Shown here: positions 1 to 30,350 of the stretch, piece after piece
Numbering within the stretch: the first letter of the stretch is position 1
Layout of the letters: every line of letters starts with the position of its first letter
Source: a virus
Taxonomy: Duplodnaviria; Caudoviricetes
DNA: 64,000 nucleotides
IMG/VR virus record: IMGVR_UViG_2903109678_000002
Span: 1-64,000 of that record
Direction: 5' to 3' (one strand)
The notes under the pieces: model-generated
What the model saw: the letters and a program-made list of their open reading frames with translations, nothing else
Databases searched by the model: none
What the model was told of the DNA's origin: nothing
Position numbers and translations under genes: made by a program

Positions 1-2487
1 TCATTGCTTGTCGTAAATCCACACCCGGCCTGCATTTTCTACCTCCTCACTGCAGTACTGCCCCTCGCCGATAAACAGCCGGTTGGCGGCATAATCTGTC
101 GCCAGGCTCGAGGAAAACGTAAAATCTTTATCCTCTGGCGCACTAATCGTCTGTTTTAACGTCCACTCCCCTTCCCACAGTTGGAAAATCCAGACCTTTC
201 CGCTGTAATTGGTACCTGATTGCCCTTTGGCAGATGAAGTATGCACCACGAAGGTGTTGCCATCGGGGGAGAAAATACTGTACTGACCAAAATAGTCCCC
301 CGCAGTCTGTTTAGCCTCCAGCAGTTGGCCCGCAATCCAGCCCTCTCTCTGCAGTTGGTAGAGCTGTAGCTTACCGGTATTATTTTCAAAATCCCTGTTT
401 CCAATCGCTATCAGCTCGCCAGAGGGATGCAAGCTGGCAAATGAGGTTCCCGAGGCAGGAATTCGTGCTGAATCCTGCCGGGTTACACCGGTGTCATCCA
501 GCGTACAGGTGGTGACCTTGATATACTCGGCCTCACCCTCTTTGAGAGTTTGAGAAAAAATCACCAGCTGCTCCCCGCTGCGGTTAAAACTCATCTGGTA
601 ACCAAACCGTTCATTTTCCTGCGGTTGTTCCGCCTGTAGGGTGTGTTTGTGTTGCCAGATGTTGTCCTGGTAATACCAGAGATACACCGCACCGGCGCTG
701 GCGGGATCATTATAAGTTGCCTGTTTGGCATACACTGCCAGCCGGCTACCGTCCGGGCTAATGGCTATTTTTTGACCATATCCTGAATTTGGCTGCGGAA
801 CTGGCACAACTTGCTGCCACTCATCCCACTCAGGCCAGGTACCGGCTATACGGCGGGCAAAGTAGAGCTTGTTACCATTCGGCACACCGATAAAAGCAGC
901 GGAACCGTCCTGATTGAGAGCGTATTGAGTAACAGGGCCAGATTGAGCGATAGCGGCTTTAAACACCGGCTCCCACTGACTGTCTGAGCGCTGCTGATAA
1001 ATATACATACCCAAACTTGCGTGATCACCACCAAAAATTACCGTCCGCCCATCGGCAGACATTCCTACGCTGCGTCCGATAAACGCATTAGCAATCAGTT
1101 CATATCCCTCCGGCTGCTCCCTGGGCGCAACGTAGTTGACCACCGGCTCCAGCTCCGGTAACGGCTCCCTGATCGGCGTCACCACATCGCCGCTCACGGC
1201 GCTCGCCATGGTCTGGCTAAACTCCAGCACAATAAACTCTGCCGGGCGTACCACGGCGAGGCCGATATTCATGCGCAAGATACCGTCATTGAGGTCTTGT
1301 TCGGTCATGCTGCTACCGACGCCAACCTGCACCTGATAACACTGCTCCGGTGTGGTACCAGCAAACGCTCCGGCTTCAAACAGGCCGAACAGGTAATTTT
1401 CTGCCGCATTGCGCAGCTGCTGCCAGGTCTGTGGGCCGTTGGGTTTAAACAGCACTTTGCGCAGCGACTGCTGCATATCGCGTTCGATGCGGTCAAAGGT
1501 GCGGCGCACCGGCACATAGCGCCATGCGACATCACCCGCACTCAGGGTACGCGCCCCCCACAGCTGCACGCCGATGCCGGGGAATTCACGCAGCATATTC
1601 ACCGCCAGCGTGCCGTCCTGGTTAAAGCGCGCCTGCGAAGCATCCCCTACCTTCACCAGCGGTTGCAGGCCTGGCTGCAAAGTGAGGTTGGCGGGGGCCT
1701 TCCAGGGGCCAATTTGCCTGTCGGTTTGCTGAATCAGGGCCGCTGCCACCGCACTGGGGGCCACCGGATGGATGACCGCCACCGGCTCGCCGCTACGCTG
1801 ATAAAGCAACCACAGAGGGCTGAGCCACGGATAGTAGAGTGCCGCGCTGGCGTTGGCATTGTACCCACTGACGAAGGTTGCCAGTGCCTCGGCATCAAAA
1901 CGCGGCTGGCGTTTCACCGGTTCAGTATCATCACCTGGTCGCTCTGCATCATTTGGCCCGTCCAGCAAGGCGAACAGCCCGCTGCCAGGCTGGCACAGAG
2001 CAGAAATAGCCAGCCCGACCGCCAGCGGTTGCCCCGCCTGCACCACCAGCGTGGCATCTGATAAATCCGCAATCTGATTGAGCTGGTCACTGCGGCACAG
2101 GTAGCAGGCACCGCCGCCGTTGTCGAAATAGGCTTTGAGCGCACTGAAGCTGGGGTGAGTCCAGTCCGGTTCGCTGCTGCTGTGGTTCTCGGGGCCAGAG
2201 TCCAGGCTACTGAGGCGCTGGTGTGCCGGGTTGCCACCCTTACGCACCGGACGGGCGCTGGCAAAGCCTGAGGCGCTCGCGCTACTGCTGAGGACACCAC
2301 TCTCTCCTTGCAGCCAGCGCTCAATTTCAGCAAAGCTACTGACCAGGTAAGGCTGAGACAGCGCCGACCACGGCCCGTCATTGCCGATAACCATCACCGG
2401 GAGGCCCGGTGCGGTTGCGGTTACAGAGAGTGAACTGCGGGTGATGTCATCAATATGCACACCGGGAGCAAGCGGGAAATTGAGCAT
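1..2487 (-). CDS. Afp2-like tail sheath protein fused to a C-terminal FG-GAP/integrin-alpha-like beta-propeller
   Basis: N-terminal ~425 aa carry sheath motifs (APGV, YFDNGGG, GPWKAPAN, WGARTL, WRYVPVRR, RPAEFIVLEFSQ). A Pro/Glu linker follows, then seven blade-like repeats (e.g. YGQKIAISPDGSRLAV, FGYQMSFNRSGEQLVI, FGQYSIFSPDGNTFVV). Confidence 0.9.
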   Translation of the reverse strand: MLNFPLAPGVHIDDITRSSLSVTATAPGLPVMVIGNDGPWSALSQPYLVSSFAEIERWLQGESGVLSSSASASGFASARPVRKGGNPAHQRLSSLDSGPENHSSSEPDWTHPSFSALKAYFDNGGGACYLCRSDQLNQIADLSDATLVVQAGQPLAVGLAISALCQPGSGLFALLDGPNDAERPGDDTEPVKRQPRFDAEALATFVSGYNANASAALYYPWLSPLWLLYQRSGEPVAVIHPVAPSAVAAALIQQTDRQIGPWKAPANLTLQPGLQPLVKVGDASQARFNQDGTLAVNMLREFPGIGVQLWGARTLSAGDVAWRYVPVRRTFDRIERDMQQSLRKVLFKPNGPQTWQQLRNAAENYLFGLFEAGAFAGTTPEQCYQVQVGVGSSMTEQDLNDGILRMNIGLAVVRPAEFIVLEFSQTMASAVSGDVVTPIREPLPELEPVVNYVAPREQPEGYELIANAFIGRSVGMSADGRTVIFGGDHASLGMYIYQQRSDSQWEPVFKAAIAQSGPVTQYALNQDGSAAFIGVPNGNKLYFARRIAGTWPEWDEWQQVVPVPQPNSGYGQKIAISPDGSRLAVYAKQATYNDPASAGAVYLWYYQDNIWQHKHTLQAEQPQENERFGYQMSFNRSGEQLVIFSQTLKEGEAEYIKVTTCTLDDTGVTRQDSARIPASGTSFASLHPSGELIAIGNRDFENNTGKLQLYQLQREGWIAGQLLEAKQTAGDYFGQYSIFSPDGNTFVVHTSSAKGQSGTNYSGKVWIFQLWEGEWTLKQTISAPEDKDFTFSSSLATDYAANRLFIGEGQYCSEEVENAGRVWIYDKQ

Positions 2488-2627
2488 AGGGTTCTCCGGT
2501 TACAGAATCAGGTTTTCTTTAGGGGAAACTGTGCGTATGAAATAAATCATGGCCATGCAAAACAGTAGTTGGCCGTTTGGCGACCACTGAGGTATGGCGG
2601 GTGGTTTGAACTACTTCTTTTGTCAAA

Positions 2628-2771
2628 CTACGGCAGAGTACAGAGCCTTGCGGTGAACCGAAAAGGGCCATGCTCCGGCGCGTTAATTGTCTGTTTTAAC
2701 CTCCACGGCCCTTCCCACAGCTGGAATCTCCAGACTTTTCCTCTGCCATCGCCATCAGATTGCCCTTTCAA
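2628..2771 (-). pseudogene. Decayed beta-propeller fragment, in frame after the stop codon of the 2772-4169 sheath gene
   Basis: 2671-2768 aligns ungapped to 131-228 (78/98 identical by hand count). Translates KGQSDGDGRGKVWRFQLWEGPWRLKQTINAPE versus KGQSGTNYSGKVWIFQLWEGEWTLKQTISAPE. Confidence 0.85.
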
Positions 2772-4169
2772 TCAAATCATCCCCCTCGGTTGTTCTCCCG
2801 CCTCAGGGTCATCCCGATAGGGATCCGACTCGGGCTCCGGCTCCGGTTCTGGCTCCGGTTCAGGTTCCGGTTCTGGCTCCGGTTCAGGTTCCGGTTCCGG
2901 CTCTGGTTCCGGCTCCGGCTCCGGTTCCGGCAACGCCGGCCCATCGGCAAGGGTGGCCCCGCCCAGCAGTTGGCTAAACTCGAGGAACACAAACTCTGCC
3001 GGTTTGACCACTGCCAGGCCAATGCGCATACGCATAATGCCAGCCAGCGTATCCTGCTGCGTCATGGTGCTGCCGAGGCCGATTTCAACGCGATAGCTGC
3101 TTTGCGGGGTATCCCCGGCGAAGGCCTGCTGGCGGAACAGGACGTAGAGATAATTCTCCACCCCGGCACGCAGTGCTTCCCAACTCACCGGGCCGTTGGG
3201 TTCAAACAGAAACCGCTGCATGGCCTGCTGCAAATCACGCTCCACCCGATCAAAGGTGCGGCGCACGTTAATATAGCCCCACGCCGGGCCGCTGTGGGTC
3301 AGGGTGCGCGCCCCCAACAGCACCGCACCACGACCGGGAAACTCGCGGAACATATTCACCGAGGGCGCGGTAAAATCCTTGCTGGTGAACGCCTGCTGGG
3401 CGCTGTTGCCCACGGCCACCTGCGGCTTCAGTCCACTGCTGAGCGGTAAATTACCCGGTGCGAGCCACGGGCCAGCGGCGTTATCGGTTTTCATCACCAA
3501 CCCGGCCGCCACGGCGCTGGGTGGCACCGCGTAAGTCCCCACTCTGCCTCCCTGCAATGTCCAGCGGGCATTGAGCCACGGATAGTAGAGCGCGGCACGG
3601 GGAGTGGGTGAAATCTCACCCAGAAAATCGTGCAGCCGCTGCGCCGAATAAAACCCCTGATGCTGCGGACCATCCAGCAGGGCAAAACGTCCGCTGCCGG
3701 GCTGGCACAGGTTGAGGATTCCCGCTATCACCTGCTGGGGTTGTCCGGCCTGCACCACCAGCGAGGCATCGCTCAGGGCTTCGATCTGCTCCAGCTGATC
3801 CACCGGGCAGAGGTAACAAGCCGTGCCGCCATTGGCGAAATAGGCGCGCAGAGCCAGTGCTTCAAGGCTGCCAGGATCGGCAGAGCGTTGGGCACCCGGT
3901 GCGTCCGCCGCTGCCGTCTGGGCGTCGTTGTCGGCCAGCCAGCGACTGGCCGCTGCTAAGCTCAGGCTCCCTACGCCCATATTGCCCGCACCTTCCAGCG
4001 CGAAATAGTCTTCCAGGCTACCGATCAGAGCTGGCTGCTGCTCGCCCCACCAACGGCTGCCCGCAGAGGTGAGCAACACCGGCACTGCGCGGGAGGACGA
4101 GCCAAGGGCGAGATCAAAGTGTGAAACCTCTTCAACATAAACACCGGGAGAGAGTGGCAATTGCGACAT
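2772..4169 (-). CDS. Afp2-like tail sheath protein with C-terminal (Pro-Glu)17 extension
   Basis: SPGVYVEEV, AYFANGG, GSGRFALLDGP, LGARTL, KPAEFVFLEFSQ, followed by a PE tract. Confidence 0.9.
   Translation of the reverse strand: MSQLPLSPGVYVEEVSHFDLALGSSSRAVPVLLTSAGSRWWGEQQPALIGSLEDYFALEGAGNMGVGSLSLAAASRWLADNDAQTAAADAPGAQRSADPGSLEALALRAYFANGGTACYLCPVDQLEQIEALSDASLVVQAGQPQQVIAGILNLCQPGSGRFALLDGPQHQGFYSAQRLHDFLGEISPTPRAALYYPWLNARWTLQGGRVGTYAVPPSAVAAGLVMKTDNAAGPWLAPGNLPLSSGLKPQVAVGNSAQQAFTSKDFTAPSVNMFREFPGRGAVLLGARTLTHSGPAWGYINVRRTFDRVERDLQQAMQRFLFEPNGPVSWEALRAGVENYLYVLFRQQAFAGDTPQSSYRVEIGLGSTMTQQDTLAGIMRMRIGLAVVKPAEFVFLEFSQLLGGATLADGPALPEPEPEPEPEPEPEPEPEPEPEPEPEPEPEPEPESDPYRDDPEAGEQPRGMI
2829..2930 (-). 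repeat. Coding (Pro-Glu)17 repeat with mixed synonymous codons
   Basis: 102 bp of imperfect 6-bp units using CCG/CCA/CCT/CCC and GAG/GAA. Confidence 0.95.
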
Positions 4170-4294
4170 AGTGCAGGTCTCCAGAACGTGGCCCGGCCAC
4201 GGTTCAGCGCAGCCGGTACCACAGGCATGATTAAGGGGCTCGTTCAGTGCGATCGGGTCGCGGGATCATTCAGCGCAGTCACCTGGCACCTCAG

Positions 4295-4328
4295 AAAAAA
4301 ACGATCTGCCCCCGGCGGAGGGCAGACC
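4295..4328 (-). terminator. Rho-independent terminator after the AAA+ ATPase gene
   Basis: Minus strand GGTCTGCCCTCCGCCGGGGGCAGATCG followed by T7. Confidence 0.75.
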
Positions 4329-4383
4329 TGGCGAAAGCGCCATGTGACCTGAGAGGTAACTGCAAGACTGAACCCGGCTATCG

Positions 4384-6447
4384 CTAGCCGCGCCCCATTT
4401 TGCTCAGTTCCCGCTGGATGGCGCGTTCAATATGTTCCAGCGAGATAGTTTTTTTCTCCGCGCTTAGCCAACTGGCGAGCAGCGCGGCGTTGCGGATGTT
4501 GGCACCGGTCAGCGCCAGCTGCGCCAGCCGGGCAAAATCGACCTCTTTCGCCACTTTGATCTGCGGCGGCCACACCGCACGCCACATCTGCTCGCGCAGG
4601 TCGGCGTTGGGGTAGGCAAAATGCGTAATAAACGAGAAGCGGCGGGTAAAGGCATCATCCAGATGGCTACGGTTGTTGGTGGCGAGGATCACCAGCCCAG
4701 GGTGATGCTCCAGCCGCTGGAGCAGATAAGCCACTTCGATGTTGGCATGCCTGTCTTTGGCATCTTTGGTTTCACTGCGCTTACCGAACAGCGCATCGGC
4801 TTCGTCAAAGAACAGCACCCCCGCATCCTGTACGGCGAGATCAAACACGCGGGCCAGGTTTTTCTCGGTTTCACCGATGTATTTGTTGATGATGCTGGAG
4901 AGATCAACGCGGATCAGATCCACACCTAGCGCCCCCGCCATCACCTCCGCCACCATACTTTTCCCGGTGCCGGGGTCACCATAGAACAGGGCGCTGATGC
5001 CGGTGGCCTTGCCCACTTTGCGCGCAAAGCCACGCTCCAGCACCCGCTCGCGCTGGCGTACTGCGCACAACACTTCATCCAGCTGCTCGCGTAGCCCAGG
5101 GCTAATAATGATGTCATCCCAGCTGCGCTGCGGCGTGACGCGCTGGGCCAGCGCATTGAAATTCTGTTTAGCACGACGCAGGAAGGCGGCACGAAAATCT
5201 TCCTCCTGCGGCCACATCTTGCCGCGCTGCATCGCCAGCGCGTGGGATTCAGCCACGGCGCTACGCATGGTATCGAACGGCAGCGCAATACGCTGCACCA
5301 GCGCGCGGGCATCCCACTGTGGCGTATTACCACCAAGTAAAGAGAGCAGGTAGTTGTAGCGTTCTTCTAAGCCCGGCACGCCAATCTCCAGCGCGTGGCG
5401 GCTGAGGCGGCTAAAGGGCAACTGCGAAAGCTGTGCTGCACTGAGGGTGCAGATCGGCAAGGGCAGCCCGTCGCGCACCTGTTGCTCCACTATCTGTTCC
5501 AGCTGCTCGATCAGGGCGCTGTAGCTGTCGCCCCCTTCCCCCGCTGCTTTAGGGGGCGGGAGGTCCAGCACCAGCAGTGAACGCGTCAGCCGGGTGAAGT
5601 TAAACAGCTGGCGCAGCAACAGCGGCGCATCACGGCCGGTGTTAAGCAGTTGCAGCCAGGAGACCCACAGCGCCTGGCTATTGAAGTGGCGTGCCAGTTC
5701 AGCAATATAGGCTTCACGGTCGGTACCGGCTTCACTGCGGATGTCGAGCAGCGGCGTCAGGCTTTGGTGAAACGCCAGCTGGCTCACCGCCGCCTGATGG
5801 CTGCGATCGTTGTGTTGATCCTCCACCCAGCGCGCCATGCCCTGTAACCCAGCAGGCAGGCTTTCACTGCCTAACAGCCAGTCCAGCACCATTTCATGGG
5901 TGCGATAGCCCTGCTCTTCACCGGCATTACGCCGGGGCAACAGTTCGATCAGCCCGTCGCGCTGTAGCGGCGCATCCGCCTGTAGGCTGGCGCGTTGGGC
6001 ATGACGGAGAAAGGTGCCCGGACAGAACAGTGCCTGAACCAGCCCGAAACTGGGGCCTTCATTTTGTTGCAGCGGAAGCTGAGCAAATAGCTGGCGATAG
6101 CGCGGCTCAAAGCTGTTCAGGCAGCCCAGCAGCAGCACCGCCAGTTCGAACTCACTCAGTTGATACTGCTCCACCAGCTGCGCCATGCGGCTTTCGGCGG
6201 GCAGATCGAACTGCGGGATGTTGCTTTGCCAGTTGGCACTGCGACCGGCCCAGTAAGGCATGGCGCGCGTGGCGCTTTCCAGCTCGCTGCTGGGCGGATA
6301 GAAATCACTTTGTGGATCAAACTGATACTGCTGCTGGTGGCGCAGCAGAATGGCATCCACCTGCGCCACGGCCGCCAGAAAGGTATAGAGTTGATCTTCC
6401 GCGGCAGCGCTGTCGGCTGGCGGGACATCTTCGGGCATCAGGTTCAT
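4384..6447 (-). CDS. Afp15/Pvc15-like AAA+ ATPase
   Basis: Walker A GDPGTGKS, Walker B LFFDEAD, KYIGETEKNL, DRHANIEVAYLLQRLE; long N-terminal domain. Confidence 0.93.
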   Translation of the reverse strand: MNLMPEDVPPADSAAAEDQLYTFLAAVAQVDAILLRHQQQYQFDPQSDFYPPSSELESATRAMPYWAGRSANWQSNIPQFDLPAESRMAQLVEQYQLSEFELAVLLLGCLNSFEPRYRQLFAQLPLQQNEGPSFGLVQALFCPGTFLRHAQRASLQADAPLQRDGLIELLPRRNAGEEQGYRTHEMVLDWLLGSESLPAGLQGMARWVEDQHNDRSHQAAVSQLAFHQSLTPLLDIRSEAGTDREAYIAELARHFNSQALWVSWLQLLNTGRDAPLLLRQLFNFTRLTRSLLVLDLPPPKAAGEGGDSYSALIEQLEQIVEQQVRDGLPLPICTLSAAQLSQLPFSRLSRHALEIGVPGLEERYNYLLSLLGGNTPQWDARALVQRIALPFDTMRSAVAESHALAMQRGKMWPQEEDFRAAFLRRAKQNFNALAQRVTPQRSWDDIIISPGLREQLDEVLCAVRQRERVLERGFARKVGKATGISALFYGDPGTGKSMVAEVMAGALGVDLIRVDLSSIINKYIGETEKNLARVFDLAVQDAGVLFFDEADALFGKRSETKDAKDRHANIEVAYLLQRLEHHPGLVILATNNRSHLDDAFTRRFSFITHFAYPNADLREQMWRAVWPPQIKVAKEVDFARLAQLALTGANIRNAALLASWLSAEKKTISLEHIERAIQRELSKMGRG

Positions 6448-6501
6448 AGGGCGATCCGTTTGTCAGGACAAAGGGGGAAATCGGGTGGACCGGAGGAATT
6501 A

Positions 6502-7434
6502 TTAATGGGGGGTGGGCACCGCCTCCGCATTTTTCTCCGGCACCTGCACCAGGCCATCAAGATTGACCTTTTTCACCGACCAGCTTGTGCCTGCCAGATC
6601 AAAGGTTTTCCCTGCCCAGCCGTTGGCGGTCTGCTCGAGCAACGTAACCTGTTCTGCCAGTACCAGCCCGGCCACGCTCACATCCACCTCCTGCACCGGT
6701 TCCCCGGCTTTCTTACGCCGGATGGTTAACGTGGGTACCGCCCGCACGGTGACGCGCGCCAGCGCCCCTCCCGGCAGCTTATGCGCCAGTTCGGCATACA
6801 GTGCCTGTTCTAACTGCAGCTGATCGTGGCCGGGGAGCGGTTCAAAGGTCGATTCCACCTTTTTCACCGGCAGAATTTCTTCCATATCATCCAGAACCAC
6901 CGGCATGGTGACGGCAAAGTTGAGAATGGTGCGCGGCTTATCCCCCAGCGCCTGCCAGAAGTTGCCGAGGCTGTTCAGCGCTTCTGGCTCGATAATGCGC
7001 AGCTGATACTTCTTAAACGCGCTGTTTTTACGCAACTTCAGCAGTGCGCGAATCATGGTGCTGTGGTTTTTCACCGAGTCGCTGTCCGGTTCCGCCTGCG
7101 GCGAGGTGGCACTGATTTTGGTCGGCGGCTCCCAGTAGGTCACCAGGTAGAGACAGCGGATAAAGGCGCGGTCCGGCTCATATTGCCCACTTTGCGGTAA
7201 ATAGGCAGTGGGTGAGCTGTGGCGAATCGCCAGGTCTTCATGAATCAGGTACATAAATAAGTGGAACGTCGGGCTATTAATTGACGCATCTTTATAATTG
7301 GGCTCATCGAAGCGGAAATTAAGTTTATCGCTGTCTTCGGGAACGCCAAAGCTGGTGTGCAAGTGGCGTTTAAGTGACATATTAAATTCACCGATCTCGC
7401 TGGCTGCGAGAGTGTCGAACAGGGATTTAGGCAT
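6502..7434 (-). CDS. Afp16/Pvc16-like cap / tail terminator (DUF4255-like)
   Basis: FMYLIHEDLAIRHS, YLVTYW and LNSLGNFWQALGDKPR motifs typical of Pvc16. Confidence 0.85.
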   Translation of the reverse strand: MPKSLFDTLAASEIGEFNMSLKRHLHTSFGVPEDSDKLNFRFDEPNYKDASINSPTFHLFMYLIHEDLAIRHSSPTAYLPQSGQYEPDRAFIRCLYLVTYWEPPTKISATSPQAEPDSDSVKNHSTMIRALLKLRKNSAFKKYQLRIIEPEALNSLGNFWQALGDKPRTILNFAVTMPVVLDDMEEILPVKKVESTFEPLPGHDQLQLEQALYAELAHKLPGGALARVTVRAVPTLTIRRKKAGEPVQEVDVSVAGLVLAEQVTLLEQTANGWAGKTFDLAGTSWSVKKVNLDGLVQVPEKNAEAVPTPH

Positions 7435-7635
7435 GGTGGCTCCTCGAAATAAGGAAGTAATAGGAAAGATTTTATTTTAAAAGTCGTTATCAGCCGTAAT
7501 TAACACTCTTCACTTTCGACAAGATAGATTTTAAAAAAAAACACTAATAATAGTTAATTTAAACTCATAAATAAGCACTTCTGAGTAAAAAATTATAATT
7601 CAACATAGTGCCTCATTGAGCCAATCCTCATTATA

Positions 7636-22646: not shown

Positions 22647-22711
22647 GGCTTAACCTCTTTACGTCTATTTTACGGAAGGTGGCAGGAGACGTGCCAACGC
22701 GTGGACGGCAC

Positions 22712-23986: not shown

Positions 23987-24057
23987 CCTCTTCTCCTGGG
24001 AATCCATCGGGCCGCAGGGCGGCTGACGGCGAAGGGTTCAGGTGGTTAGGTATAGAT

Positions 24058-25455: not shown

Positions 25456-25547
25456 AACAGCTCCTCATCATGATGGCGTATCACCCACCGTAACCGGACG
25501 GTGCGATTAGCCACGGGCAAAATAAGTGTGATACGGCGAGAAAAGGG

Positions 25548-25589
25548 AAAAAGGGGCGGTGAAGCATGAGCAGCCAGTGAACACCGCCC
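25548..25589 (-). terminator. Terminator-like stem-loop after the first Afp3-like sheath gene
   Basis: Minus strand GGGCGGTG...CACCGCCC followed by CTTTTT; the loop is long. Confidence 0.5.
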
Positions 25590-25601
25590 AAAACAGCGTG
25601 A

Positions 25602-27005
25602 TTACGCGGCGGCTAACAGTTCCTGAGTAAACTCCAGGTCGATAAACTCCACCGGGCGCAACGCAGCAAGGCTGACGCGTACGCGCAGGATGCCGTTGTC
25701 GATATCCCCGTCTTGCAGCGCAATCTGCACCCGATAGGCCTCTTCTGGCGAGTTGCCAAACAGCCCACCGCGTTTCCAGATACCGTGCAGATAGTTACTG
25801 ATACCCGCCACTACCGCTTGCCAGGTAGGTGCTGAGTTCGGCTGGAAGATAATCGGTGCCAGCATTGCGCTGACATCACGTTCCACGGTGTTAAATAACA
25901 GGCGTACCGGGACGTAGCGCCAGTTAGTAATGTTGGGATCTGCGGAGGTGCGCGCCCCCATGATTGAAGTGCCCTTCTGCGGCGACCACAAAATGGCATT
26001 GACCCCAGCCTCGTTCAAAACACCGTGTTCCTGGGCACTAATAGTGTGTACTGGCGTTACCCCCACCAGAGAAACGTTCGCAGGTGCTTTCCACACCCCA
26101 CGGTTGCGCTCGCTGGTGCAATACGCGCCCGCCACAGCGGCAACTGGCGAGAGAGTTAGCGAACTCACCGCTGAGAAATCCAGTGGCGCGAGTGCCAGAT
26201 TGTCTTTTACCGTTTTGTAAACGGCTTTATCTCGCTGAGCGGAAAGCAGCGCATTACCCAGGAAAATACCGTTTTCATTCACCACGTTGAAATTACTCTC
26301 CAGCTTCAGCTCTGGGGTGTAACTGGCAGAAAATTCATTTTTAGGCATGACCGGGCCGGCTGGTGGCGTACTGCCGGTAAACGCTGCATGGGCAATAAAC
26401 AGGGATTGTGGATTATGCTCTTGAATCGCGGCAATACTGCCTTTAACCAGCTCTTGCGCACTGGCATTCAAAGGCACATACAACGAGACTTCATCCAACT
26501 CTGCCGTGGCTTTTTCTAAATCGTCTTTTGCATCAGAAGCGCTTAAAGCGAGGAGATAGCAAGCGCCGCCCCCGTTCGAAAAATAGCTGGCCACTGCTGC
26601 CGAGGAATTGTCATACAAATATGAACTGCTGATTTTTGTTGGCTGGCCGCTGGTAAAAGGTACCTCCGTGGCCGCAGCCACGCTATCAGCCTCTTTTGTC
26701 GCTTTTTTACTTTTTTTAGCTTCTACGCCTCCTGCCTCTTCGCCGCTTTCTTCATCACCGCCTTCCGGAAGGGGGGCCGCCTGGCCCCATGCCGGCGCCA
26801 GTTTAATAATCAGCGGGGCCGCAACGAATTTTTCAGCAAACTCCGCATAGTTAGCCACATAGACTGCGCCATCTGCCGCATTGGCTTGCGTTCCGTCCTT
26901 TTTCCAAAAGGCTCCCACCAAAAGCGGCACCAGGCCGCTCATGCCCGCAGCACCCACCGAAGGGGTACTGCTTTCAATAATTTTCACTCCAGGATTTCTA
27001 CTCAT
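25602..27005 (-). CDS. Afp3-like tail sheath protein (copy 1)
   Basis: NPGVKIIE, VPLLVGAF, YFSNGGGACY, GVWKAPAN, WRYVPVR, RPVEFIDLEFTQ. Confidence 0.92.
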   Translation of the reverse strand: MSRNPGVKIIESSTPSVGAAGMSGLVPLLVGAFWKKDGTQANAADGAVYVANYAEFAEKFVAAPLIIKLAPAWGQAAPLPEGGDEESGEEAGGVEAKKSKKATKEADSVAAATEVPFTSGQPTKISSSYLYDNSSAAVASYFSNGGGACYLLALSASDAKDDLEKATAELDEVSLYVPLNASAQELVKGSIAAIQEHNPQSLFIAHAAFTGSTPPAGPVMPKNEFSASYTPELKLESNFNVVNENGIFLGNALLSAQRDKAVYKTVKDNLALAPLDFSAVSSLTLSPVAAVAGAYCTSERNRGVWKAPANVSLVGVTPVHTISAQEHGVLNEAGVNAILWSPQKGTSIMGARTSADPNITNWRYVPVRLLFNTVERDVSAMLAPIIFQPNSAPTWQAVVAGISNYLHGIWKRGGLFGNSPEEAYRVQIALQDGDIDNGILRVRVSLAALRPVEFIDLEFTQELLAAA

Positions 27006-27032
27006 GATCGATCCTCATGAAAAGGCGCGTGA

Positions 27033-28301
27033 TCACGCGCCACTGGCAACTTGTTGGCTAAACTCCAGCACGATAAATTCCGCCGGGCGCACCACCGCAA
27101 TACCGATACGCGCTTTGAGGATTCCGTTATCAATGTCGGCCTGAGTCATGGTGACTCCCAGTCCCACCTGAATAAAGAAGGCCTCTTCCGGCGTATTCCC
27201 CTGTAACGCGCCTTTTTTCCACAGGTTGTAGAGGTAGTTCTCTACGGCGGCACGCACCGCCTCCCAGGTTGCCTGGCCGTTGGGCTCAAACAGCACCGAT
27301 TCCAGCGCCCGGCCAATATCGCGTTCTGCCATATCAAAGGTACGGCGCACCGGGACATATCCCCAGGCATTGCCGCCAGTGGTCAGCGTGCGAGCGCCCC
27401 ATAGCAGCAGACCACGCCCTTTGAATTCGCGCAGAATATTGACGGATTTGGTGGTGTGGTTTCCGCTGGTAAACAGGGCTTGCGTGGCTGACCCCACTTT
27501 AACCAGTGGGCTTAAACCCGAAGAGACAGCAGCATTTGCCGGTGCTTTCCATGGGCCTACGCTATTGTCAGTGCGACAGATGATGCCCGCTGCGACAGCA
27601 CTCGGCGCAACATTAGCAATCTCGGTCACCCCCGGAATGCTCCAGTTGGCTTTCAGCCATGGATAATAAACTGCAGCATGCTCTGTGGCCTGGATACCGC
27701 CGAGCGCAGTTTCAAGCTCACCTTTAACATCCCCTTTTGACTCCTCCGGCCCGTCCAGTAGAGCAAAACGCCCACTGCCTTCCGCGGTGTACTTCAGGAT
27801 GTCAGATGTTACTGTGCTCTGACCCGCCTGCACCACCAGGGTGACATCGGGCAATTTGTCCAGCCATTCGAGCTTATCTCTGGGCAGCAGATAGCAATAA
27901 CCGCCACCATTATCAAAATACGCTTTAAGGGCGGGTAAAGTGTGTCGATCCCAGTCCGGCACATCTGCCGTTTTGGTATTCACACCCATGGCATCGGCAA
28001 GACGAGGATGATGCGCCGGCCCGCCACGAGAAAGGCGTGAAAGCAGACTAACAACGGCACGCGGCGAGTAGTAGGCCACGCTTTCCGATTTACTCCCGCT
28101 GGCGGAGAAATAACTGAGTACATCCGCAAACGAATTGATCAAAGCGGGTTTTTCGCCCAACGCCTTCCACCAATCCAAAGAGCCCGAATTGCCGTCCAGA
28201 ATCACCGGTACTGCTGTCGCCGAGCTGCTGATGCTGAATGAGGGCAAATCCACCTCATCCACATACACGCCCGGCGCTTTTGGTAAAGTAAATACAGCCA
28301 T
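27033..28301 (-). CDS. Afp2-like major tail sheath protein
   Basis: APGVYVDE..SISSSATAVPV, YFDNGGGYCY, GPWKAPAN, WGARTL, RPAEFIVLEFSQ. Confidence 0.93.
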   Translation of the reverse strand: MAVFTLPKAPGVYVDEVDLPSFSISSSATAVPVILDGNSGSLDWWKALGEKPALINSFADVLSYFSASGSKSESVAYYSPRAVVSLLSRLSRGGPAHHPRLADAMGVNTKTADVPDWDRHTLPALKAYFDNGGGYCYLLPRDKLEWLDKLPDVTLVVQAGQSTVTSDILKYTAEGSGRFALLDGPEESKGDVKGELETALGGIQATEHAAVYYPWLKANWSIPGVTEIANVAPSAVAAGIICRTDNSVGPWKAPANAAVSSGLSPLVKVGSATQALFTSGNHTTKSVNILREFKGRGLLLWGARTLTTGGNAWGYVPVRRTFDMAERDIGRALESVLFEPNGQATWEAVRAAVENYLYNLWKKGALQGNTPEEAFFIQVGLGVTMTQADIDNGILKARIGIAVVRPAEFIVLEFSQQVASGA

Positions 28302-28328
28302 ATAACCTCCAGAAGGTTAAGCAGTACA

Positions 28329-28784
28329 TTACAGGGCGTGGCATTCCACGGTCAGACGATCGGCATTCAGGGTGATCTGCTTCGCCGCCACTTCATTGCT
28401 GGAAGCTTCGAGGCTTGGCCCGGTAATTCCGGTTGGGAAGCAGTTGAATACGTTCCAGGTGACATAGAGCTTTTTGCCCGATTCATCCGTCAGACTGATG
28501 GCGATATCTTTTTTGCCATCTGCGTGGTTGGCATAGTTATACAGCCACTCATACAGCTTGCACTCACCTGGGAAGATCGCCTGAGAAAGGGTGATAGAAG
28601 GTAACTGAACGCGCGTGATGTTGCGGAACAGGCCGCCCATACCATCGCGGTATTCATAACTTTCATACTGCTGGTCGAGGCCGCTTACTGAACTACAGCG
28701 GATCACATCACCGTCAATGGTTACAGTGAAGCGAAAACCGGGAACCGGATAACTTGCATCAATGATATCAGTGGTATCTGCCAT
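28329..28784 (-). CDS. Afp1-like major tail tube protein (gp19 family)
   Basis: YPVPGFRFTV, SVSGLD, YRDG, KKDIAISL, FPT..GPSLEASSNEVA. Confidence 0.93.
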   Translation of the reverse strand: MADTTDIIDASYPVPGFRFTVTIDGDVIRCSSVSGLDQQYESYEYRDGMGGLFRNITRVQLPSITLSQAIFPGECKLYEWLYNYANHADGKKDIAISLTDESGKKLYVTWNVFNCFPTGITGPSLEASSNEVAAKQITLNADRLTVECHAL

Positions 28785-28858
28785 GGTTATTTCTCACTTT
28801 GCAGGTTTGAACGTATCCGCTGCCCGCAGGCAGTCAGGATGGATGAACAACATTGATT

Positions 28859-30235
28859 TCAGGAGGTCCCGGTGGCTGACCTCAGAGGAACTAATTGCGT
28901 CAGGTTATTGTTAGAAGCGAATCTGGAATCTTGTGCGATCACAGAATCGGGGTGAATCCCTGGTAGTGGCGCCATCACGCCGAGCACCTGCTCAACGCTA
29001 ATAAACTTCGAGCAGGAAAACTGTTCACTGGTGCCCTTGTGACGTGGACACCAGAAAAAATCCTTTCGATCAAATTGATAGCGAGTGTCATTCCAGCAGC
29101 TATTGCAGACGTGGGTGTTAGTCACCCGATAGGGCGTGGCGAACTCGGTCGCTGGATTGCTAAATCCGCTGATCATCACCACCGGTGTGCCTGCGGTCCA
29201 GGCCAGCCAGGAGAGCCCGCTACTGAGGCCGACAAAAAATTCCGCGTGCATCAACCACCGCAGACGCTCGCTCAAGGGGCGATTGCCGGTTTCGTCTTCA
29301 GCGCCATGGGGAATGTGATTCCAGGTCAGATCGCGTCCTACTGTGGTCTCTTTGTCGATGCAGATCACCCGATAACCGCGTTCTTTAAGCTCCCGCACCA
29401 GTTGTATCCAGCCAACGGGATTGTTCCAGAATTTACACTGCGAGGTAGACTGAACGCCGATACAGACGTAAGGCTCCGCAATGGGGCGACGGTTTTCAGC
29501 CAGCCTGAACTGTGCGGGGTTTTCATCTGGGGCAAGGCCAAGAATGGCGCTGGCGATATGGTGTAGTGGCGTTTGTTGACCGTCAACCGGGCAGTATTCC
29601 CCCTGCGTATCCCCTATACCTGCATTCAGGAAGTAGGTGGCGTAATAGGTGGTTTCATCCGGTTCATACGGATCAATAAAGCGAATTTGCGGATAGCTGC
29701 TGGCAAAAACATCGTGGAAGCGTGCCGAGACACGGACCGTGAGACGGCACTGATGGCGTACCTGAAAACGCATCACTGAGGGCAGCCAGGCGAGGGTATC
29801 CCCCAGGGTATCTTCGGGGATTTGTATCAGCACCGGTTGCTGATACAAATCCATGACGTGCAACATGACAATCTCATTGTCTTTCTGCACCTGAAAGGCA
29901 AACGGCACGTAATACTTGTGTTTACTCTCAACCATCCCTCCTGACACCGCAGTATCACCAAACACGTGATAGTTCTGGATATCCACTACGCGTACGCGCC
30001 AGTTGCCTTCGGGTAGGTGAATGCGACAACCATGATTAAAGTCAAACAAAATGCCTGTGCCCTCTGCCCCCTGCTGGGTCGGCAGCTCGGGAACGGGGGC
30101 ATAAGGCGACTTTTTAAAATCAGAATCAGAAGCCACGGCGTACGACGACTCTGGTACAGAATCTTCTACGTGTTCGGGTTGTGGACGACTTTCAGGCGAT
30201 GGAAATGCAGCGTTATTAGGCGTAAAAAAACTCAT
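28859..30235 (-). CDS. TibC/Aah-like protein O-heptosyltransferase (BAHT family)
   Basis: FDFNHGCR, KYYVPF, TLGDTLAW, QSTSQCKFWNN, GLSSGLSWLAW, VVMISGFS and a four-Cys iron finger (CNSCWN...WCPRHKGT...FSCS). Confidence 0.92.
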   Translation of the reverse strand: MSFFTPNNAAFPSPESRPQPEHVEDSVPESSYAVASDSDFKKSPYAPVPELPTQQGAEGTGILFDFNHGCRIHLPEGNWRVRVVDIQNYHVFGDTAVSGGMVESKHKYYVPFAFQVQKDNEIVMLHVMDLYQQPVLIQIPEDTLGDTLAWLPSVMRFQVRHQCRLTVRVSARFHDVFASSYPQIRFIDPYEPDETTYYATYFLNAGIGDTQGEYCPVDGQQTPLHHIASAILGLAPDENPAQFRLAENRRPIAEPYVCIGVQSTSQCKFWNNPVGWIQLVRELKERGYRVICIDKETTVGRDLTWNHIPHGAEDETGNRPLSERLRWLMHAEFFVGLSSGLSWLAWTAGTPVVMISGFSNPATEFATPYRVTNTHVCNSCWNDTRYQFDRKDFFWCPRHKGTSEQFSCSKFISVEQVLGVMAPLPGIHPDSVIAQDSRFASNNNLTQLVPLRSATGTS

Positions 30236-30320
30236 ATTTCACCTTTATTTTTAAATAGGGCAGGTTATTTTTTCTGCTTATTGAGTTTTTATTTGCAGAT
30301 TTATAAAAAAGTGTTTTAGG

Positions 30321-30350
30321 CAGACTACCGTCCTCAGACATTCAAGCTGA
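30321..30350 (-). promoter_or_regulatory. ops-like (RfaH) element with JUMPstart-like upstream stem
   Basis: Minus strand GACGGTAGTCTG (30321-30332) is one mismatch from GGCGGTAGnnTG, is preceded by TCAG-N9-CTGA, and lies 85 nt before the first ATG. Confidence 0.65.

What the first reader, a model, noticed from the sequence alone, without database searches (positions are those of the whole stretch)
1..30350. Candidate new eCIS subtype: heptosyltransferase-led, seven-sheath particle with adhesin-like sheath fusions in the cargo slot
Seen: a full Afp1-16-like gene set plus a leading BAHT glycosyltransferase, four extra sheath genes, and sheath fusions after the ATPase, with no recognisable toxin in the window. 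Known: Serratia Afp and Photorhabdus PVC have three sheath genes and encode effectors after the ATPase/cap genes. Inference: the particle may be glycosylated and decorated along its sheath with binding domains, acting as a surface-display or adhesive tailocin rather than only a fibre-targeted syringe. I do not know of a described system like this but could not search.
Basis: partly seen in the sequence, partly recalled or inferred. Interest (0 to 1): 0.92.

Follow-up and report, generated by a model that had tools for sequence, protein, structure and literature searches.

The report
Heptosyltransferase-led injection system with sheath-propeller fusions
This is a complete phage-tail-like injection particle gene cluster of the Afp/PVC kind that carries no toxin gene but has three rare additions: a protein-sugar transferase as its first gene, extra sheath genes, and sheath proteins with a binding-type propeller domain tethered to their tail.

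Summary
Window 30235..1 (minus strand) encodes a full Afp1-16-like eCIS. A TibC/Aah-type O-heptosyltransferase (BAHT) comes first. Five sheath genes follow in tandem: one Afp2-like, three Afp3-like, one Afp4-like. Two more Afp2-like sheath genes lie after the ATPase. One of these (g20) carries a roughly 32-residue linker and a 7-bladed FG-GAP/integrin-alpha-like propeller. The other (g19) is a decayed copy that keeps only a (Pro-Glu)17 tail. No toxin is encoded; the operon ends at window base 1, facing a sulfate permease gene.

The lineage is rare but conserved. Orthologues of six checked genes, including BAHT and the fusion, sit on single contigs in Pantoea sp. A4 and one more assembly. A distant metagenome contig holds BAHT-tube-sheath in the same order.

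Elsewhere BAHT genes precede AIDA-type autotransporters, and none was found in this genome. Sheath proteins elsewhere end 9-24 residues after their last conserved motif.

Between loci whose sheath domains are 96% identical, the propeller is swapped (24% identity). That is the behaviour of a specificity module.

Best reading (about 0.5): the particle is heptosylated in the cytoplasm and displays sheath-anchored propellers. Neither step is shown. This is a new variant of a known kind.

The parts
30236..31142 (-). AT-rich leader without long ORFs, lying between the tRNA-Leu att remnant and the BAHT start codon
   Evidence: 38% GC. The distant relative L104 also has an AT-rich (34% GC) leader of more than 1 kb, but no conserved sequence block was found.
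28859..30235 (-). g01: TibC/Aah-type protein O-heptosyltransferase (BAHT), 458 aa
   Evidence: Pfam TibC_1st + GT9. TIGR04414 scores 532.6 bits against a cut-off of 200. TibC PDB 4rap, E 5.9e-112. The catalytic Asp, four sugar-binding residues and four iron-finger Cys are conserved. It is the only BAHT in the genome.
28329..28784 (-). g02: tube protein (Afp1-like)
   Evidence: Pfam Phage_T4_gp19, E 4.6e-27. 88% identical to the tube gene that follows BAHT in L104.
27033..28301 (-). g03: Afp2/Pvc2-like main sheath protein, with a clade-specific insertion of about 55-70 aa
   Evidence: PDB Pvc2 E 2.2e-84 and Afp2 E 2.3e-71. The insertion carries a G-PAH-P-L...DW motif. It is shared with g20, L104_440, P0004 and P0005, and is absent from 10 Afp2-like sheaths of other eCIS loci.
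25602..27005 (-). g04: Afp3/Pvc3-like sheath paralogue 1
   Evidence: PDB Pvc3 E 1.9e-54. 33-39% identical to g05 and g06.
24058..25455 (-). g05: Afp3/Pvc3-like sheath paralogue 2
   Evidence: Intact orthologues at 87% identity in Pantoea sp. A4 and in one further assembly.
22712..24007 (-). g06: Afp3/Pvc3-like sheath paralogue 3
   Evidence: Orthologue at 92% identity in Pantoea sp. A4. The three paralogues are 43-56% identical in the last ~190 alignment columns (48% in the first 40) but 6-29% in the middle, outward-facing part.
21450..22646 (-). g07: Afp4/Pvc4-like sheath initiator
   Evidence: PDB Pvc4 E 2.2e-63 and Afp4 E 2.5e-50. 96% identical orthologue in Pantoea sp. A4.
20984..21472 (-). 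g08: tube protein (Afp5-like)
   Evidence: Pfam Phage_T4_gp19, E 1.2e-14.
20808..21005 (-). Small ORF in the Afp6 slot (DUF5908)
   Evidence: Pfam DUF5908, E 1.7e-10.
20077..20811 (-). g09: tube initiator (Afp7-like)
   Evidence: Pfam CIS_tube, E 1.5e-16.
18419..20059 (-). g10: VgrG-like spike (Afp8)
   Evidence: Pfam Phage_GPD + Phage_base_V.
17957..18400 (-). g11: gp25-like sheath adaptor (Afp9)
   Evidence: Pfam GPW_gp25, E 6.3e-20.
17526..17960 (-). g12: spike tip (Afp10)
   Evidence: Pfam CIS_spike_tip, E 1.2e-33.
14683..17481 (-). g13: baseplate wedge (Afp11/Pvc11)
   Evidence: PDB Pvc11 E 1e-111 and Afp11 E 3.6e-68.
11651..14686 (-). g14: baseplate wedge (Afp12/Pvc12)
   Evidence: PDB Pvc12 E 9.2e-98 and Afp12 E 1e-93.
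9227..11629 (-). g15: tape measure protein (Afp14-like), 800 aa
   Evidence: Pfam CIS_TMP, E 7.9e-56. The N-terminal half also matches CIS_TMP.
7636..9099 (-). g16: tail fibre (Afp13-like) with two tandem S/T-rich shaft modules of about 140 aa
   Evidence: Pfam Av_adeno_fibre. Weak PDB hits to an adenoviral fibre (E 9e-4) and to AfpX13 (E 7.6e-3). Sequence read. Its 90%-identity cluster holds only this sequence, so no close orthologue is recorded.
6502..7434 (-). g17: cap (Afp16/Pvc16-like)
   Evidence: Pfam Pvc16_N, E 2.8e-11.
4384..6447 (-). g18: AAA+ ATPase (Afp15-like)
   Evidence: Pfam AAA + WHD.
4303..4328 (-). Terminator-like hairpin between the ATPase gene and g19: 11 base pairs, 7 of them G-C, followed by a T run
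   Evidence: This is a consensus match only, not evidence of function.
2772..4169 (-). g19: Afp2-like sheath paralogue ending in (Pro-Glu)17 and a short acidic tail; a decayed sheath-propeller fusion
   Evidence: 48% identical to g03 and 44% to g20. Sequence read. It has 71 residues after the last conserved sheath motif. It sits on a long branch in the tree.
2637..2771 (-). Remnant of the last propeller blade, in g19's frame directly after its stop codon
   Evidence: 60% aa identity to part of g20's last ~100 residues (residues 324-368 of the 399-aa C-terminal query). 74% nt identity over 125 nt to window 104-228. Frame read.
1..2487 (-). g20: Afp2-like sheath domain (1-~429), disordered linker (~430-461) and 7-bladed FG-GAP/integrin-alpha-like beta-propeller (~462-828)
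   Evidence: AF2 model of residues 430-828: pLDDT 83.6, pTM 0.85, first 32 residues disordered. Integrin-alpha propellers are the top matches, Z 29-33. FG-GAP_2 relatives found. 409 residues follow the last conserved sheath motif.

Best explanation
The locus is an intact Afp/PVC-type extracellular contractile injection system, carried on an acquired island next to a tRNA site. It belongs to a small lineage with three additions.

(1) The first gene is a BAHT-type heptosyltransferase. I infer that it uses ADP-heptose to O-glycosylate one or more particle proteins while the particle is built in the cytoplasm. The candidates are the S/T-rich adenovirus-like fibre shaft or the clade-specific insertion in the Afp2-like sheaths.

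(2) The Afp3-like sheath is triplicated. The three copies keep their inner handshake parts and differ in the outward-facing part. In PVC that outward part is the knob thought to dock folded fibres. I infer several chemically different sheath layers.

(3) An old Afp2-like paralogue is encoded after the ATPase, behind a terminator-like hairpin. It copolymerises through the normal sheath handshake. Its otherwise invariant C-terminus continues into a flexible or stiff linker and an integrin-alpha-like propeller.

I infer that this subunit enters in small numbers, most likely in the apical layer, where the C-terminal region of Pvc2 meets the cap. There it would hold tethered propellers outside the sheath as a second, exchangeable binding layer beside the fibres.

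No toxin is encoded in or next to the operon. The particle would therefore act by binding and puncture alone, or load cargo encoded elsewhere.

Shown: gene content, homologies, conservation, rarity, and the propeller swap. Inferred: glycosylation of the particle, incorporation and position of the fusion, and a binding role.
For: Complete eCIS set.

BAHT is genuine. TIGR04414 scores 532.6 bits against a cut-off of 200. TibC matches at E 5.9e-112, with D110, T226, K230, R286, W305 and Cys339/342/358/370 all conserved as D146, T264, K268, R324, W343 and C377/380/396/408.

BAHT linkage to the eCIS is conserved:
- The 90% cluster of g01 includes Pantoea sp. A4 WP_017349782 (contig of 59,930 nt) and a protein on a contig of 109,552 nt.
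- The accession numbers 782, 787 and 788 fit the window's gene order.
- The metagenome locus L104 has BAHT (54% identity), then tube (88%), then Afp2-, Afp3- and Afp4-like sheaths and onwards. The fusion P0004 is on a contig of the same length.

This linkage is exceptional:
- 0 of 73 other eCIS loci have a BAHT in their flanks.
- 1 of 80 metagenome BAHT loci is eCIS-linked.
- 19 of 401 genomes of the family sample have a BAHT, and only this one is next to eCIS genes.
- 6 of 6 tested neighbours are ESPR + AIDA autotransporters.
- The genome (100% complete) has one BAHT and no AIDA-repeat match, while the E. coli control rang.

The fusion is old and unusual:
- The sheath domains of g19, g20, Pantoea A4, P0004 and P0005 form one clade (SH-aLRT 99) beside the in-place Afp2-likes.
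- 114 of the 120 best sheath homologues end 10-12 residues after the P-x-E-[FY]-[IVL] motif. The other 6 are this clade.
- 114 of 114 motif-bearing sheath ORFs in the 73 other loci end 9-24 residues after it.

Propeller:
- AF2 pLDDT 83.6, seven blades, preceded by a 32-residue disordered linker.
- Integrin-alpha propellers are the top matches: Z 33.1-29.4, rmsd about 3 A over about 340 residues.
- FG-GAP_2 relatives number 10,759 at E<=1e-3.
- Viral-library matches (TMq 0.65-0.79) include Caudovirales FG-GAP proteins, giant-virus collagen-like fibril proteins and an S74 fibre protein.

Swap: P0002 against Pantoea A4 is 96% identical in the sheath domain and 24% in the propeller. The window against A4 is 92.5% and 22%.

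Geometry: in PlPVC1 the sheath wall is (162-80)/2 = 41 A thick. The top-layer Pvc2 C-terminal region pairs with the Pvc16 middle loop. The Pvc3 knob is the presumed fibre dock (passages of bioRxiv 10.1101/2025.04.20.649488).

Afp3-like paralogues: 43-56% identical in the last ~190 alignment columns (48% in the first 40), 6-29% in the middle.
Against: - No expression, protein or glycan data exist for this locus.
- The BAHT thumb-tip residues F265/V266, needed for the TibC dodecamer, are L/T here. Oligomer state and activity are therefore open.
- No eCIS protein matches AIDA repeats, and no acceptor site is identified.
- The sheath C-terminal strands are buried in the handshake. The near-invariant C-terminus elsewhere could mean that extensions are poorly tolerated inside a sheath.
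- g19 has lost its propeller and sits on a long branch, so this gene class can decay.
- The terminator-like hairpin before g19 may mean that the fusions are weakly expressed or separately controlled.
- The propeller's margin over generic WD40 propellers is small: Z 33 against 27-30.
- Co-location in the relatives rests on equal contig lengths and accession order, not on DNA that I read, except for L104.
- All BAHT-linked loci belong to one clade, so their shared features count as one evolutionary event.
Confidence: 0.5

Rival explanations
1. The heptosyltransferase is a passenger. It serves some non-eCIS substrate, such as an autotransporter elsewhere or one that has been lost, and merely sits beside the eCIS operon.
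For: Everywhere else that I looked, BAHT genes precede AIDA-type autotransporters. In the family sample, 17 of 18 BAHT genes are followed by a long frame, and 6 of 6 tested are ESPR+AIDA. The genome does have a 928-aa pertactin-like autotransporter on another contig. No acceptor motif was found in any eCIS protein.
Against: The BAHT-then-tube order, with a 74-105 nt gap, is kept between loci whose BAHTs are only 54% identical. It is also kept in the closer relatives. There is one BAHT and no AIDA-repeat match in a 100%-complete genome. No other gene lies between the AT-rich leader and the tube gene.
Confidence: 0.15
2. The sheath-propeller proteins are not built into the sheath. They are free proteins in the payload slot. 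They use a sheath-like domain to dock transiently on the tube, cap or ATPase, or to regulate sheath polymerisation.
For: A terminator-like hairpin separates them from the structural genes. A C-terminal extension is otherwise never seen on sheath proteins.
Against: The sheath domain is full length, with N- and C-terminal handshake segments conserved at 44-48% identity to g03. Known eCIS cargo is not sheath-like (recalled, not tested here). The linker-plus-propeller architecture and the module swap fit a displayed binding domain.
Confidence: 0.2
3. The extra sheath genes are redundant duplicates on their way to decay. The working particle uses one Afp2/3/4 set, and the locus may be silent.
For: g19 is visibly decayed. 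The distant relative L104 manages with a single Afp3-like gene. An AT-rich leader is typical of silenced acquired DNA (the silencing is an inference). An independent tandem expansion in B. multivorans shows that such duplications happen readily.
Against: All other ORFs are intact and of normal length. The g05, g06 and g07 orthologues are intact at 87-96% identity in two other genomes. The Afp3-like paralogues keep their handshake parts at 43-56% identity while the exposed part has diverged to 6-29%, which is the pattern of subfunctionalisation.
Confidence: 0.15

Closest known systems
Photorhabdus virulence cassettes (PVCpnf, PlPVC1) and Serratia Afp
   Same: Same part list and nearest sequence relatives. 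Pvc2/Afp2, Pvc3/Afp3, Pvc4/Afp4, Pvc11 and Pvc12 are the top PDB hits. The tube, spike, gp25, tape measure, adenovirus-like fibre, Pvc16 cap and AAA ATPase are also shared.
   Different: PVC and Afp have three sheath genes, followed by toxin genes. Here there are seven sheath-domain genes, no toxin and a BAHT at the front. The tape measure/fibre and cap/ATPase orders are inverted. The Afp2-like sheaths carry an insertion of 55-70 aa.
TibC/TibA and Aah/AIDA-I (bacterial autotransporter heptosyltransferases)
   Same: g01 passes the equivalog model. It keeps the catalytic base, the sugar-binding residues and the iron finger.
   Different: The partner gene is an eCIS tube gene, not an AIDA-repeat autotransporter, and no AIDA repeat was found in the genome. 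The thumb-tip F-V is L-T, and there are 40 extra N-terminal residues.
Burkholderia multivorans WS-FJ9 eCIS locus (L028)
   Same: More than three sheath genes: five in tandem, three of them Afp2-like paralogues.
   Different: The expansion is independent of this one. There is no BAHT within 10 kb and no C-terminal extension.
FG-GAP_2 propeller proteins of phages and giant viruses, and integrin alpha headpieces
   Same: Same fold and family for the g20 C-terminal domain.
   Different: In those proteins the propeller is attached to fibre-like, collagen-like or capsid modules, or stands alone. Fusion to a contractile sheath protein was seen only in this clade: P0001-P0006, and 0 of 20 further checked proteins.

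Membership tests
eCIS (Afp/PVC superfamily; core set as given by Chen et al. 2019, PMC6899500, passages read) | Homologues of Afp1/5, Afp2/3/4, Afp7, Afp8, Afp9, Afp11, Afp15 and Afp16 in one locus | tested here: met
   All eight types are present. Afp6, Afp10, Afp12, Afp13 and Afp14 equivalents are also present.
eCIS (Afp/PVC superfamily) | Payload or toxin genes next to the structural operon, as in Afp17/18 and the PVC effectors | tested here: not met
   No toxin family was found in the operon, in the leader, or in the 20 kb beyond the last gene. Cargo encoded elsewhere in the genome was not searched for.
eCIS (Afp/PVC superfamily) | Released, contractile particle | not testable with these tools
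   Needs purification and EM.
BAHT (TibC/Aah O-heptosyltransferases) | Sequence membership: N-terminal beta-barrel plus GT-B catalytic domain | tested here: met
   TIGR04414 532.6 bits, cut-off 200. PF21129 + PF01075. TibC E 5.9e-112 over residues 41-424.
BAHT (TibC/Aah O-heptosyltransferases) | Catalytic base Asp-110; sugar-binding Thr-226, Lys-230, Arg-286, Trp-305; iron-finger Cys-339/342/358/370 (PMC4358343, passages read) | tested here: met
   9 of 9 are conserved in the alignment, as D146, T264, K268, R324, W343, C377, C380, C396 and C408.
BAHT (TibC/Aah O-heptosyltransferases) | Hydrophobic thumb tip (Phe-265/Val-266) needed for the dodecamer | tested here: inconclusive
   The aligned residues are Leu-Thr. 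Phe-368 is conserved (as F406).
BAHT (TibC/Aah O-heptosyltransferases) | Adjacent partner autotransporter with AIDA-type repeats | tested here: not met
   The next gene is the tube gene. There is no PF16168 match in the genome, while the E. coli control rang.
Contractile sheath protein, Afp2/Pvc2 type (g19, g20) | Full sheath fold with N- and C-terminal handshake segments | tested here: met
   44-48% identity to g03 over about 420 residues. Pfam sheath domains present. The Atlas model of residues 1-429 superposes on sheath clusters with TM 0.92 by target.
Contractile sheath protein, Afp2/Pvc2 type (g19, g20) | Chain ends about 9-24 residues after the last conserved P-x-E-[FY]-[IVL] motif | tested here: not met
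   g19 has 71 residues and g20 has 409 after the motif. This compares with 10-12 in 114 of the 120 best homologues, and 9-24 in 114 of 114 sheath ORFs of other loci.
FG-GAP_2 (PF14312) seven-bladed propeller | Pfam model match | tested here: inconclusive
   g20 itself gives only a weak PD40 hit. Its homologues P0004 and P0005 match PF14312 at E 4e-21 and 1e-23. phmmer links g20 to FG-GAP_2 proteins down to E 4e-100.
FG-GAP_2 (PF14312) seven-bladed propeller | Seven four-stranded blades, integrin-alpha-like | tested here: met
   AF2 model with pLDDT 83.6 and 27 strands. Integrin-alpha chains are the top matches, Z 33.1-29.4.

The most novel reading that the evidence does not exclude
This is a naturally glycosylated, toxin-less eCIS with two targeting layers. 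A BAHT coats a particle protein with heptose in the cytoplasm. A dedicated sheath paralogue threads a linker out of the sheath to display exchangeable integrin-like propellers. The propellers either give the particle a second receptor specificity, or they bind the heptosylated partner on neighbouring particles and tie them into bundles or arrays, as glycosylated self-associating autotransporters do for cells. It would also be the first evidence that the contractile sheath's C-terminus can carry a 400-residue passenger.
Probability: 0.3. Interest if true: 0.85.

Novelty: new variant of a known kind. Interest (0 to 1): 0.72.

Why it matters
eCIS particles are under intense study, both as natural host-interaction devices and as programmable protein-delivery tools. 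Their targeting is so far ascribed to the tail fibres alone.

This lineage suggests two mechanisms that have not been described. The first is post-translational heptosylation of a phage-tail-like particle by an enzyme family known only from autotransporter adhesins. The second is a sheath subunit that displays an exchangeable binding domain.

It would extend the substrate range of BAHTs. It would show that the most constrained end of the sheath protein can tolerate a passenger. It also gives a concrete, testable case of an eCIS without an adjacent toxin.

Tried and rejected
- RfaH ops-like element (consensus recalled from memory): 3 one-mismatch matches in the window against 4.45 expected, so not above chance.
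- Rfam at gathering thresholds: no match in the window.
- ARAGORN: no tRNA in the window. The tRNA-like 25-mer at 31143-31167 is an att repeat of tRNA-Leu(TAA).
- Conserved leader element between the window and L104: only chance-level blastn matches.
- Close relatives in genome contigs: the scan returned general eCIS sheaths only, at or below 47% identity, and none of the fusions.
- Plasmid collection: no record covers 80% or more of g20 (0 of 135 records with a match). All 220 BAHT matches are below 60% identity (the 25 rows shown reach 51.2% at most), and none was seen beside eCIS genes in the listed rows.
- A Serratia-labelled genus reached through L032: 0 of 16 genomes have a BAHT at E<=1e-30.
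- Island boundary test: in 1 of 5 same-genus genomes a tRNA (Cys) lies about 1 kb from the sulfate permease orthologue. The other four show none within 1.5 kb, so the result is inconclusive.
- Sequencing runs: no RNA holder is listed. One DNA holder may be the source sample.
- Earlier findings of this scan: nothing to show.
Only the C-terminal 399 residues were folded.
- Foldseek against the PDB gave only generic WD40 propellers, TMq 0.5-0.6. The integrin match came from the wide VIA-align search.
- Complex prediction was not used. No pair was both claimed to bind and discriminable from textbook sheath contacts.
- The careful tree search did not finish. The tree cited is the quick IQ-TREE run with SH-aLRT support and a midpoint root.

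Full report
**What is there**

The window maps to G000:C11:599568-663567. Twenty long ORFs on the minus strand run from 30235 down to 1, with gaps of -23 to 284 nt. Pfam names 18 of the 20. In order they are:
- a TibC_1st + GT9 glycosyltransferase (g01);
- a gp19-type tube protein (g02);
- five proteins with the sheath C-terminal domain (g03-g07);
- a second tube protein (g08);
- CIS_tube (g09), VgrG (g10), gp25 (g11) and spike tip (g12);
- two large proteins without a Pfam match (g13, g14);
- CIS tape measure (g15), an adenovirus-fibre-like protein (g16), Pvc16_N cap (g17) and AAA ATPase (g18);
- two more sheath-domain proteins (g19, g20).

g13 and g14 are Pvc11/Afp11 and Pvc12/Afp12 by sequence search of the PDB. 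A DUF5908 mini-ORF fills the Afp6 slot. The eight subunit types that Chen et al. 2019 give as the common core of eCIS loci are all present (PMC6899500, passages read).

**The seven sheath genes fall into three classes**

By pairwise BLAST and PDB search:
- g03, g19 and g20 are Afp2/Pvc2-like and 44-48% identical to one another.
- g04, g05 and g06 are Afp3/Pvc3-like and 33-39% identical to one another.
- g07 is Afp4/Pvc4-like.

I built a quick maximum-likelihood tree of 45 sheath sequences. It has SH-aLRT support and a midpoint root; the careful search did not finish. It gives three main results:
- The three Afp3-like genes fall in one clade of six rows (support 100), together with their two Pantoea sp. 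A4 orthologues (of g05 and g06) and the single Afp3-like gene of a distant relative (L104).
- The sheath domains of all fusion proteins (g19, g20, Pantoea sp. A4, P0004, Serratia marcescens P0005) form a clade of their own (support 99). It sits beside the in-place Afp2-like genes g03 and L104_440.
- The fusion gene is therefore an old member of the lineage, while the Afp3 triplication is younger.

The three Afp3-like paralogues are 43-56% identical in the last ~190 alignment columns (and 48% in the first 40). They are only 6-29% identical in the middle, which also carries indels.

In PlPVC1 the Pvc3-specific knob lies in that middle part and is thought to dock the folded fibres. There the sheath starts with Pvc4, alternates Pvc2 and Pvc3, and ends with Pvc2 layers (bioRxiv 10.1101/2025.04.20.649488, passages read).

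**The two post-ATPase genes**

g20 (828 aa) is a full Afp2-like sheath protein. After its last conserved strand it continues into a linker and a C-terminal domain. I folded residues 430-828 with a 27-sequence alignment:
- The model has mean pLDDT 83.6 and pTM 0.85.
- Its first 32 residues are disordered.
- The rest is all-beta, with 27 strands, as expected for seven blades.

In a search of 48,161 PDB representatives, the top seven rows and nine of the first twelve are integrin-alpha propellers. They score Z 33.1-29.4 at rmsd about 3 A over about 335-345 residues. Generic WD40 propellers follow at Z 27-30. Foldseek on the PDB gave only generic WD40 matches.

By sequence the domain belongs to the FG-GAP_2 world:
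- The homologues P0004 and P0005 match PF14312.
- An exhaustive phmmer search finds 10,759 proteins at E<=1e-3, many of them giant multi-propeller proteins.
- 0 of 20 checked hits of 750-930 aa carry a sheath domain.

In the viral structure library the model matches FG-GAP propellers at TMq 0.65-0.79. These belong to giant-virus collagen-like proteins, uncultured Caudovirales proteins, an S74-domain fibre protein and a phage protein named hemagglutinin. The ESM Atlas pointed the same way (a lead only).

g19 (465 aa) has the same sheath domain but ends in 17 Pro-Glu dipeptides and a short acidic tail. Directly after its stop codon, in the same frame, lie 45 codons that are 60% identical to part of g20's last ~100 residues. 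At the DNA level the match is 74% over 125 nt. g19 is thus a fusion gene that lost most of its propeller. It also sits on a long branch and has lost the motif in the clade-specific insertion.

**How unusual a C-terminal extension is**

Of the 120 best sheath homologues of g20 (455-1449 aa, many phyla), 114 end 10-12 residues after the last P-x-E-[FY]-[IVL] motif. The six exceptions are P0001-P0006, which is this clade.

The 73 other eCIS loci hold 118 sheath ORFs. Of these, 114 carry the motif and all 114 end 9-24 residues after it. In the window, g03-g07 end 11-18 residues after it, g19 ends 71 after it and g20 ends 409 after it.

Full-length relatives of g20 are few. Only five proteins cover 95% or more of it, out of 1,466 hits among 8,000 scored candidates.

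**The propeller is an exchangeable module**

| Gene or domain | Identity, window vs Pantoea sp. A4 |
|---|---|
| BAHT | 92% |
| g05 | 87.5% |
| g06 | 92% |
| g07 | 96% |
| g20 sheath domain | 92.5% |
| g20 propeller | 22% |

P0002 and the A4 protein are 96% identical in the sheath domain and 24% in the propeller. The break lies in the linker. A sharp module swap of this kind is what receptor-binding parts of fibres, and the C-terminal domains of polymorphic proteins, typically show. It is the main argument that the propeller determines a specificity.

**The heptosyltransferase**

g01 passes NCBI's equivalog model for Aah/TibC with 532.6 bits against a cut-off of 200. It aligns to TibC (PDB 4rap) at E 5.9e-112.

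The TibC paper (PMC4358343, passages read) names a catalytic base, four sugar-binding residues and four iron-coordinating cysteines. All nine are conserved here. The thumb-tip Phe-Val is Leu-Thr. TibC's Pro-300 is Ser here, as the paper reports for AAH.

What differs is the neighbourhood:
- In the family sample, 19 of 401 genomes have a BAHT.
- None of the other 18 has eCIS genes in the 1.5-kb flanks.
- 17 of those 18 are followed by a long frame, and 6 of 6 tested are ESPR + AIDA-repeat autotransporters.
- Of 80 BAHT loci from metagenomes, one is eCIS-linked.
- None of the 73 other eCIS loci has a BAHT within 10 kb.

The window's genome is 100% complete in 48 contigs. It has a single BAHT and no AIDA-repeat match, while the control rang in E. 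coli. Its two autotransporter beta-domains lie on other contigs, and one belongs to a pertactin-like protein.

**Conservation of the arrangement**

The 90%-identity cluster of g01 holds four sequences. One is Pantoea sp. A4 WP_017349782 on a 59,930-nt contig. Another is on a 109,552-nt contig.

The g06, g07 and g05 orthologues, and the fusions WP_017349803 and P0002, are recorded on contigs of the same two lengths. The A4 accession numbers 782 (BAHT), 787 (g06) and 788 (g07) step exactly as the window's gene order does. I did not see that DNA, so co-linearity there is inferred.

I did read L104, from a 35,646-nt metagenome contig. Its order is BAHT (54% identity), a 105-nt gap, tube (88%), Afp2-like with the same insertion, one Afp3-like gene, Afp4-like, tube, tube initiator, VgrG, gp25, spike tip and Afp11. 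The fusion P0004 (38% identical to g20) is recorded on a contig of that same length.

Within the window's own genus, 1 of 75 species genomes has any such sheath gene. A lambdoid prophage is flanked by a 25-nt repeat of the tRNA-Leu(TAA) 3' end. It separates the locus from a Gly-Cys-Leu tRNA cluster. The eCIS is therefore an acquired island beside a tRNA site.

**No toxin**

Nothing toxin-like was found in the operon or in the AT-rich leader. Nothing was found beyond the last gene either. A convergent sulfate permease gene ends 172 nt from g20's stop. After it come a TonB-dependent receptor, PLD, an acyltransferase, opgGH and a T6SS VgrG-DcrB-PAAR/Rhs cluster. Cargo encoded elsewhere in the genome was not searched for.

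**How it most likely works**

Steps that are shown:
- The gene set is complete.
- The BAHT has an intact active site.
- A sheath paralogue has intact handshake segments and a tethered propeller.
- BAHT and the fusion are kept across the lineage.
- The propeller module is exchanged between relatives.

Steps that are inferred:

(a) eCIS particles assemble in the cytoplasm, which is where BAHTs act. The canonical substrate class was not found in the genome. The enzyme therefore most likely heptosylates a particle protein. My candidates are the fibre and the sheath insertion. The fibre has two tandem S/T-rich adenovirus-shaft-like modules. The insertion is the 55-70-residue segment with a conserved G-PAH-P-L...DW motif. 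It is found in 5 of 6 Afp2-like sheaths of this clade (degenerate in g19) and in 0 of 10 from other loci. That is a single-clade correlation.

(b) g20 enters the sheath through the ordinary handshake. In PlPVC1 the C-terminal region of the top-layer Pvc2 pairs with the middle loop of the cap protein, and the sheath wall is about 41 A thick. A linker of 32-34 residues could exit at the apical ring or cross the wall. I favour sparse, apical incorporation, because the gene lies behind a terminator-like hairpin and because internal C-termini are buried.

(c) The propellers then act as a second, exchangeable binding layer.

I put about 0.5 on this combined reading. The rivals are a passenger BAHT (0.15), fusions that stay out of the particle (0.2), and redundant or decaying duplicates (0.15).

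**Comparison and novelty**

The system works like, and is a member of, the Afp/PVC group of eCIS. It fails the payload feature, since no toxin is adjacent. g01 is a BAHT by sequence and active-site criteria, but it fails the defining genomic feature of an adjacent AIDA-type partner. g19 and g20 are sheath proteins that break the otherwise fixed C-terminal end.

More than three sheath genes is not unique. Among the 73 other loci:

| Sheath genes per locus | Loci |
|---|---|
| 1 | 46 |
| 2 | 12 |
| 3 | 13 |
| 4 | 1 (Okeania) |
| 5 | 1 (B. multivorans) |

These are lower bounds, given the 10-kb flanks.

Four full-text searches found no paper that describes a glycosyltransferase as an eCIS structural-operon gene or a sheath fused to a propeller. 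The searches were: eCIS phrase + heptosyltransferase; eCIS + Pantoea; CIS + sheath + C-terminal extension + glycosyltransferase; and eCIS + glycosyltransferase. Three reviews or surveys that I checked for these words held none. Supplementary tables of eCIS catalogues were not read and may list the Pantoea sp. A4 locus.

My verdict is a new variant of a known kind, with interest 0.72.

Noticed in passing
window 31143-64000 and beyond, to G000:C11:674323: A lambdoid siphovirus prophage with terminase, portal, capsid, a 1174-aa tape measure and a 1722-aa tip protein J. It is flanked by an exact 25-nt direct repeat of the 3' end of tRNA-Leu(TAA). The intact Gly-Cys-Leu tRNA cluster lies at the far end.
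   Followed up: partly
L008:2-5009 (G000:C11:579569-584576): A T6SS VgrG (685 aa), a DcrB-like protein and a PAAR-Rhs protein lie about 15-20 kb beyond the end of the eCIS operon. The same genome therefore carries both T6SS parts and an eCIS.
   Followed up: no
L028 (Burkholderia multivorans WS-FJ9, JAAGNW010000049.1): An eCIS locus with five tandem sheath genes. Three are recent Afp2-like paralogues (404-425 aa) with a K/E-rich insertion that differs from the one in the window.
   Followed up: partly
L053 (Okeania sp. SIO2C9): An eCIS locus with four consecutive large sheath genes of 556, 868, 949 and 655 aa.
   Followed up: no
L093:123-5216; L094:15773-19957; L095:725-2305: Genomes of another genus in the family carry tandem arrays of free-standing FG-GAP_2 propeller proteins of about 400-530 aa. 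They are 20-29% identical to the g20 propeller, and no eCIS genes lie nearby.
   Followed up: partly
window 31785-31991 (+) and 32366-32686 (-): A 68-aa KGG-repeat stress-protein-like ORF, and a 106-aa ORF resembling the C-terminal part of UmuD/LexA-type proteins. They lie between the att repeat and the prophage tail genes. Both names are from reading the sequence and were not tested.
   Followed up: no
L104:1160-2347 (-): Upstream of the BAHT-led eCIS on the metagenome contig lies a 395-aa ORF with no Pfam match. By eye it looks like a plasmid replication initiator, which would put that locus on a plasmid. This was not confirmed.
   Followed up: partly
window 1-30235, composition: G+C content is mosaic along the operon: 61% around g18-g19, 63% around g15, 51-53% around the fibre/cap and around g14, and 32% in the fibre-cap spacer. 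This suggests assembly from modules with different histories.
   Followed up: no
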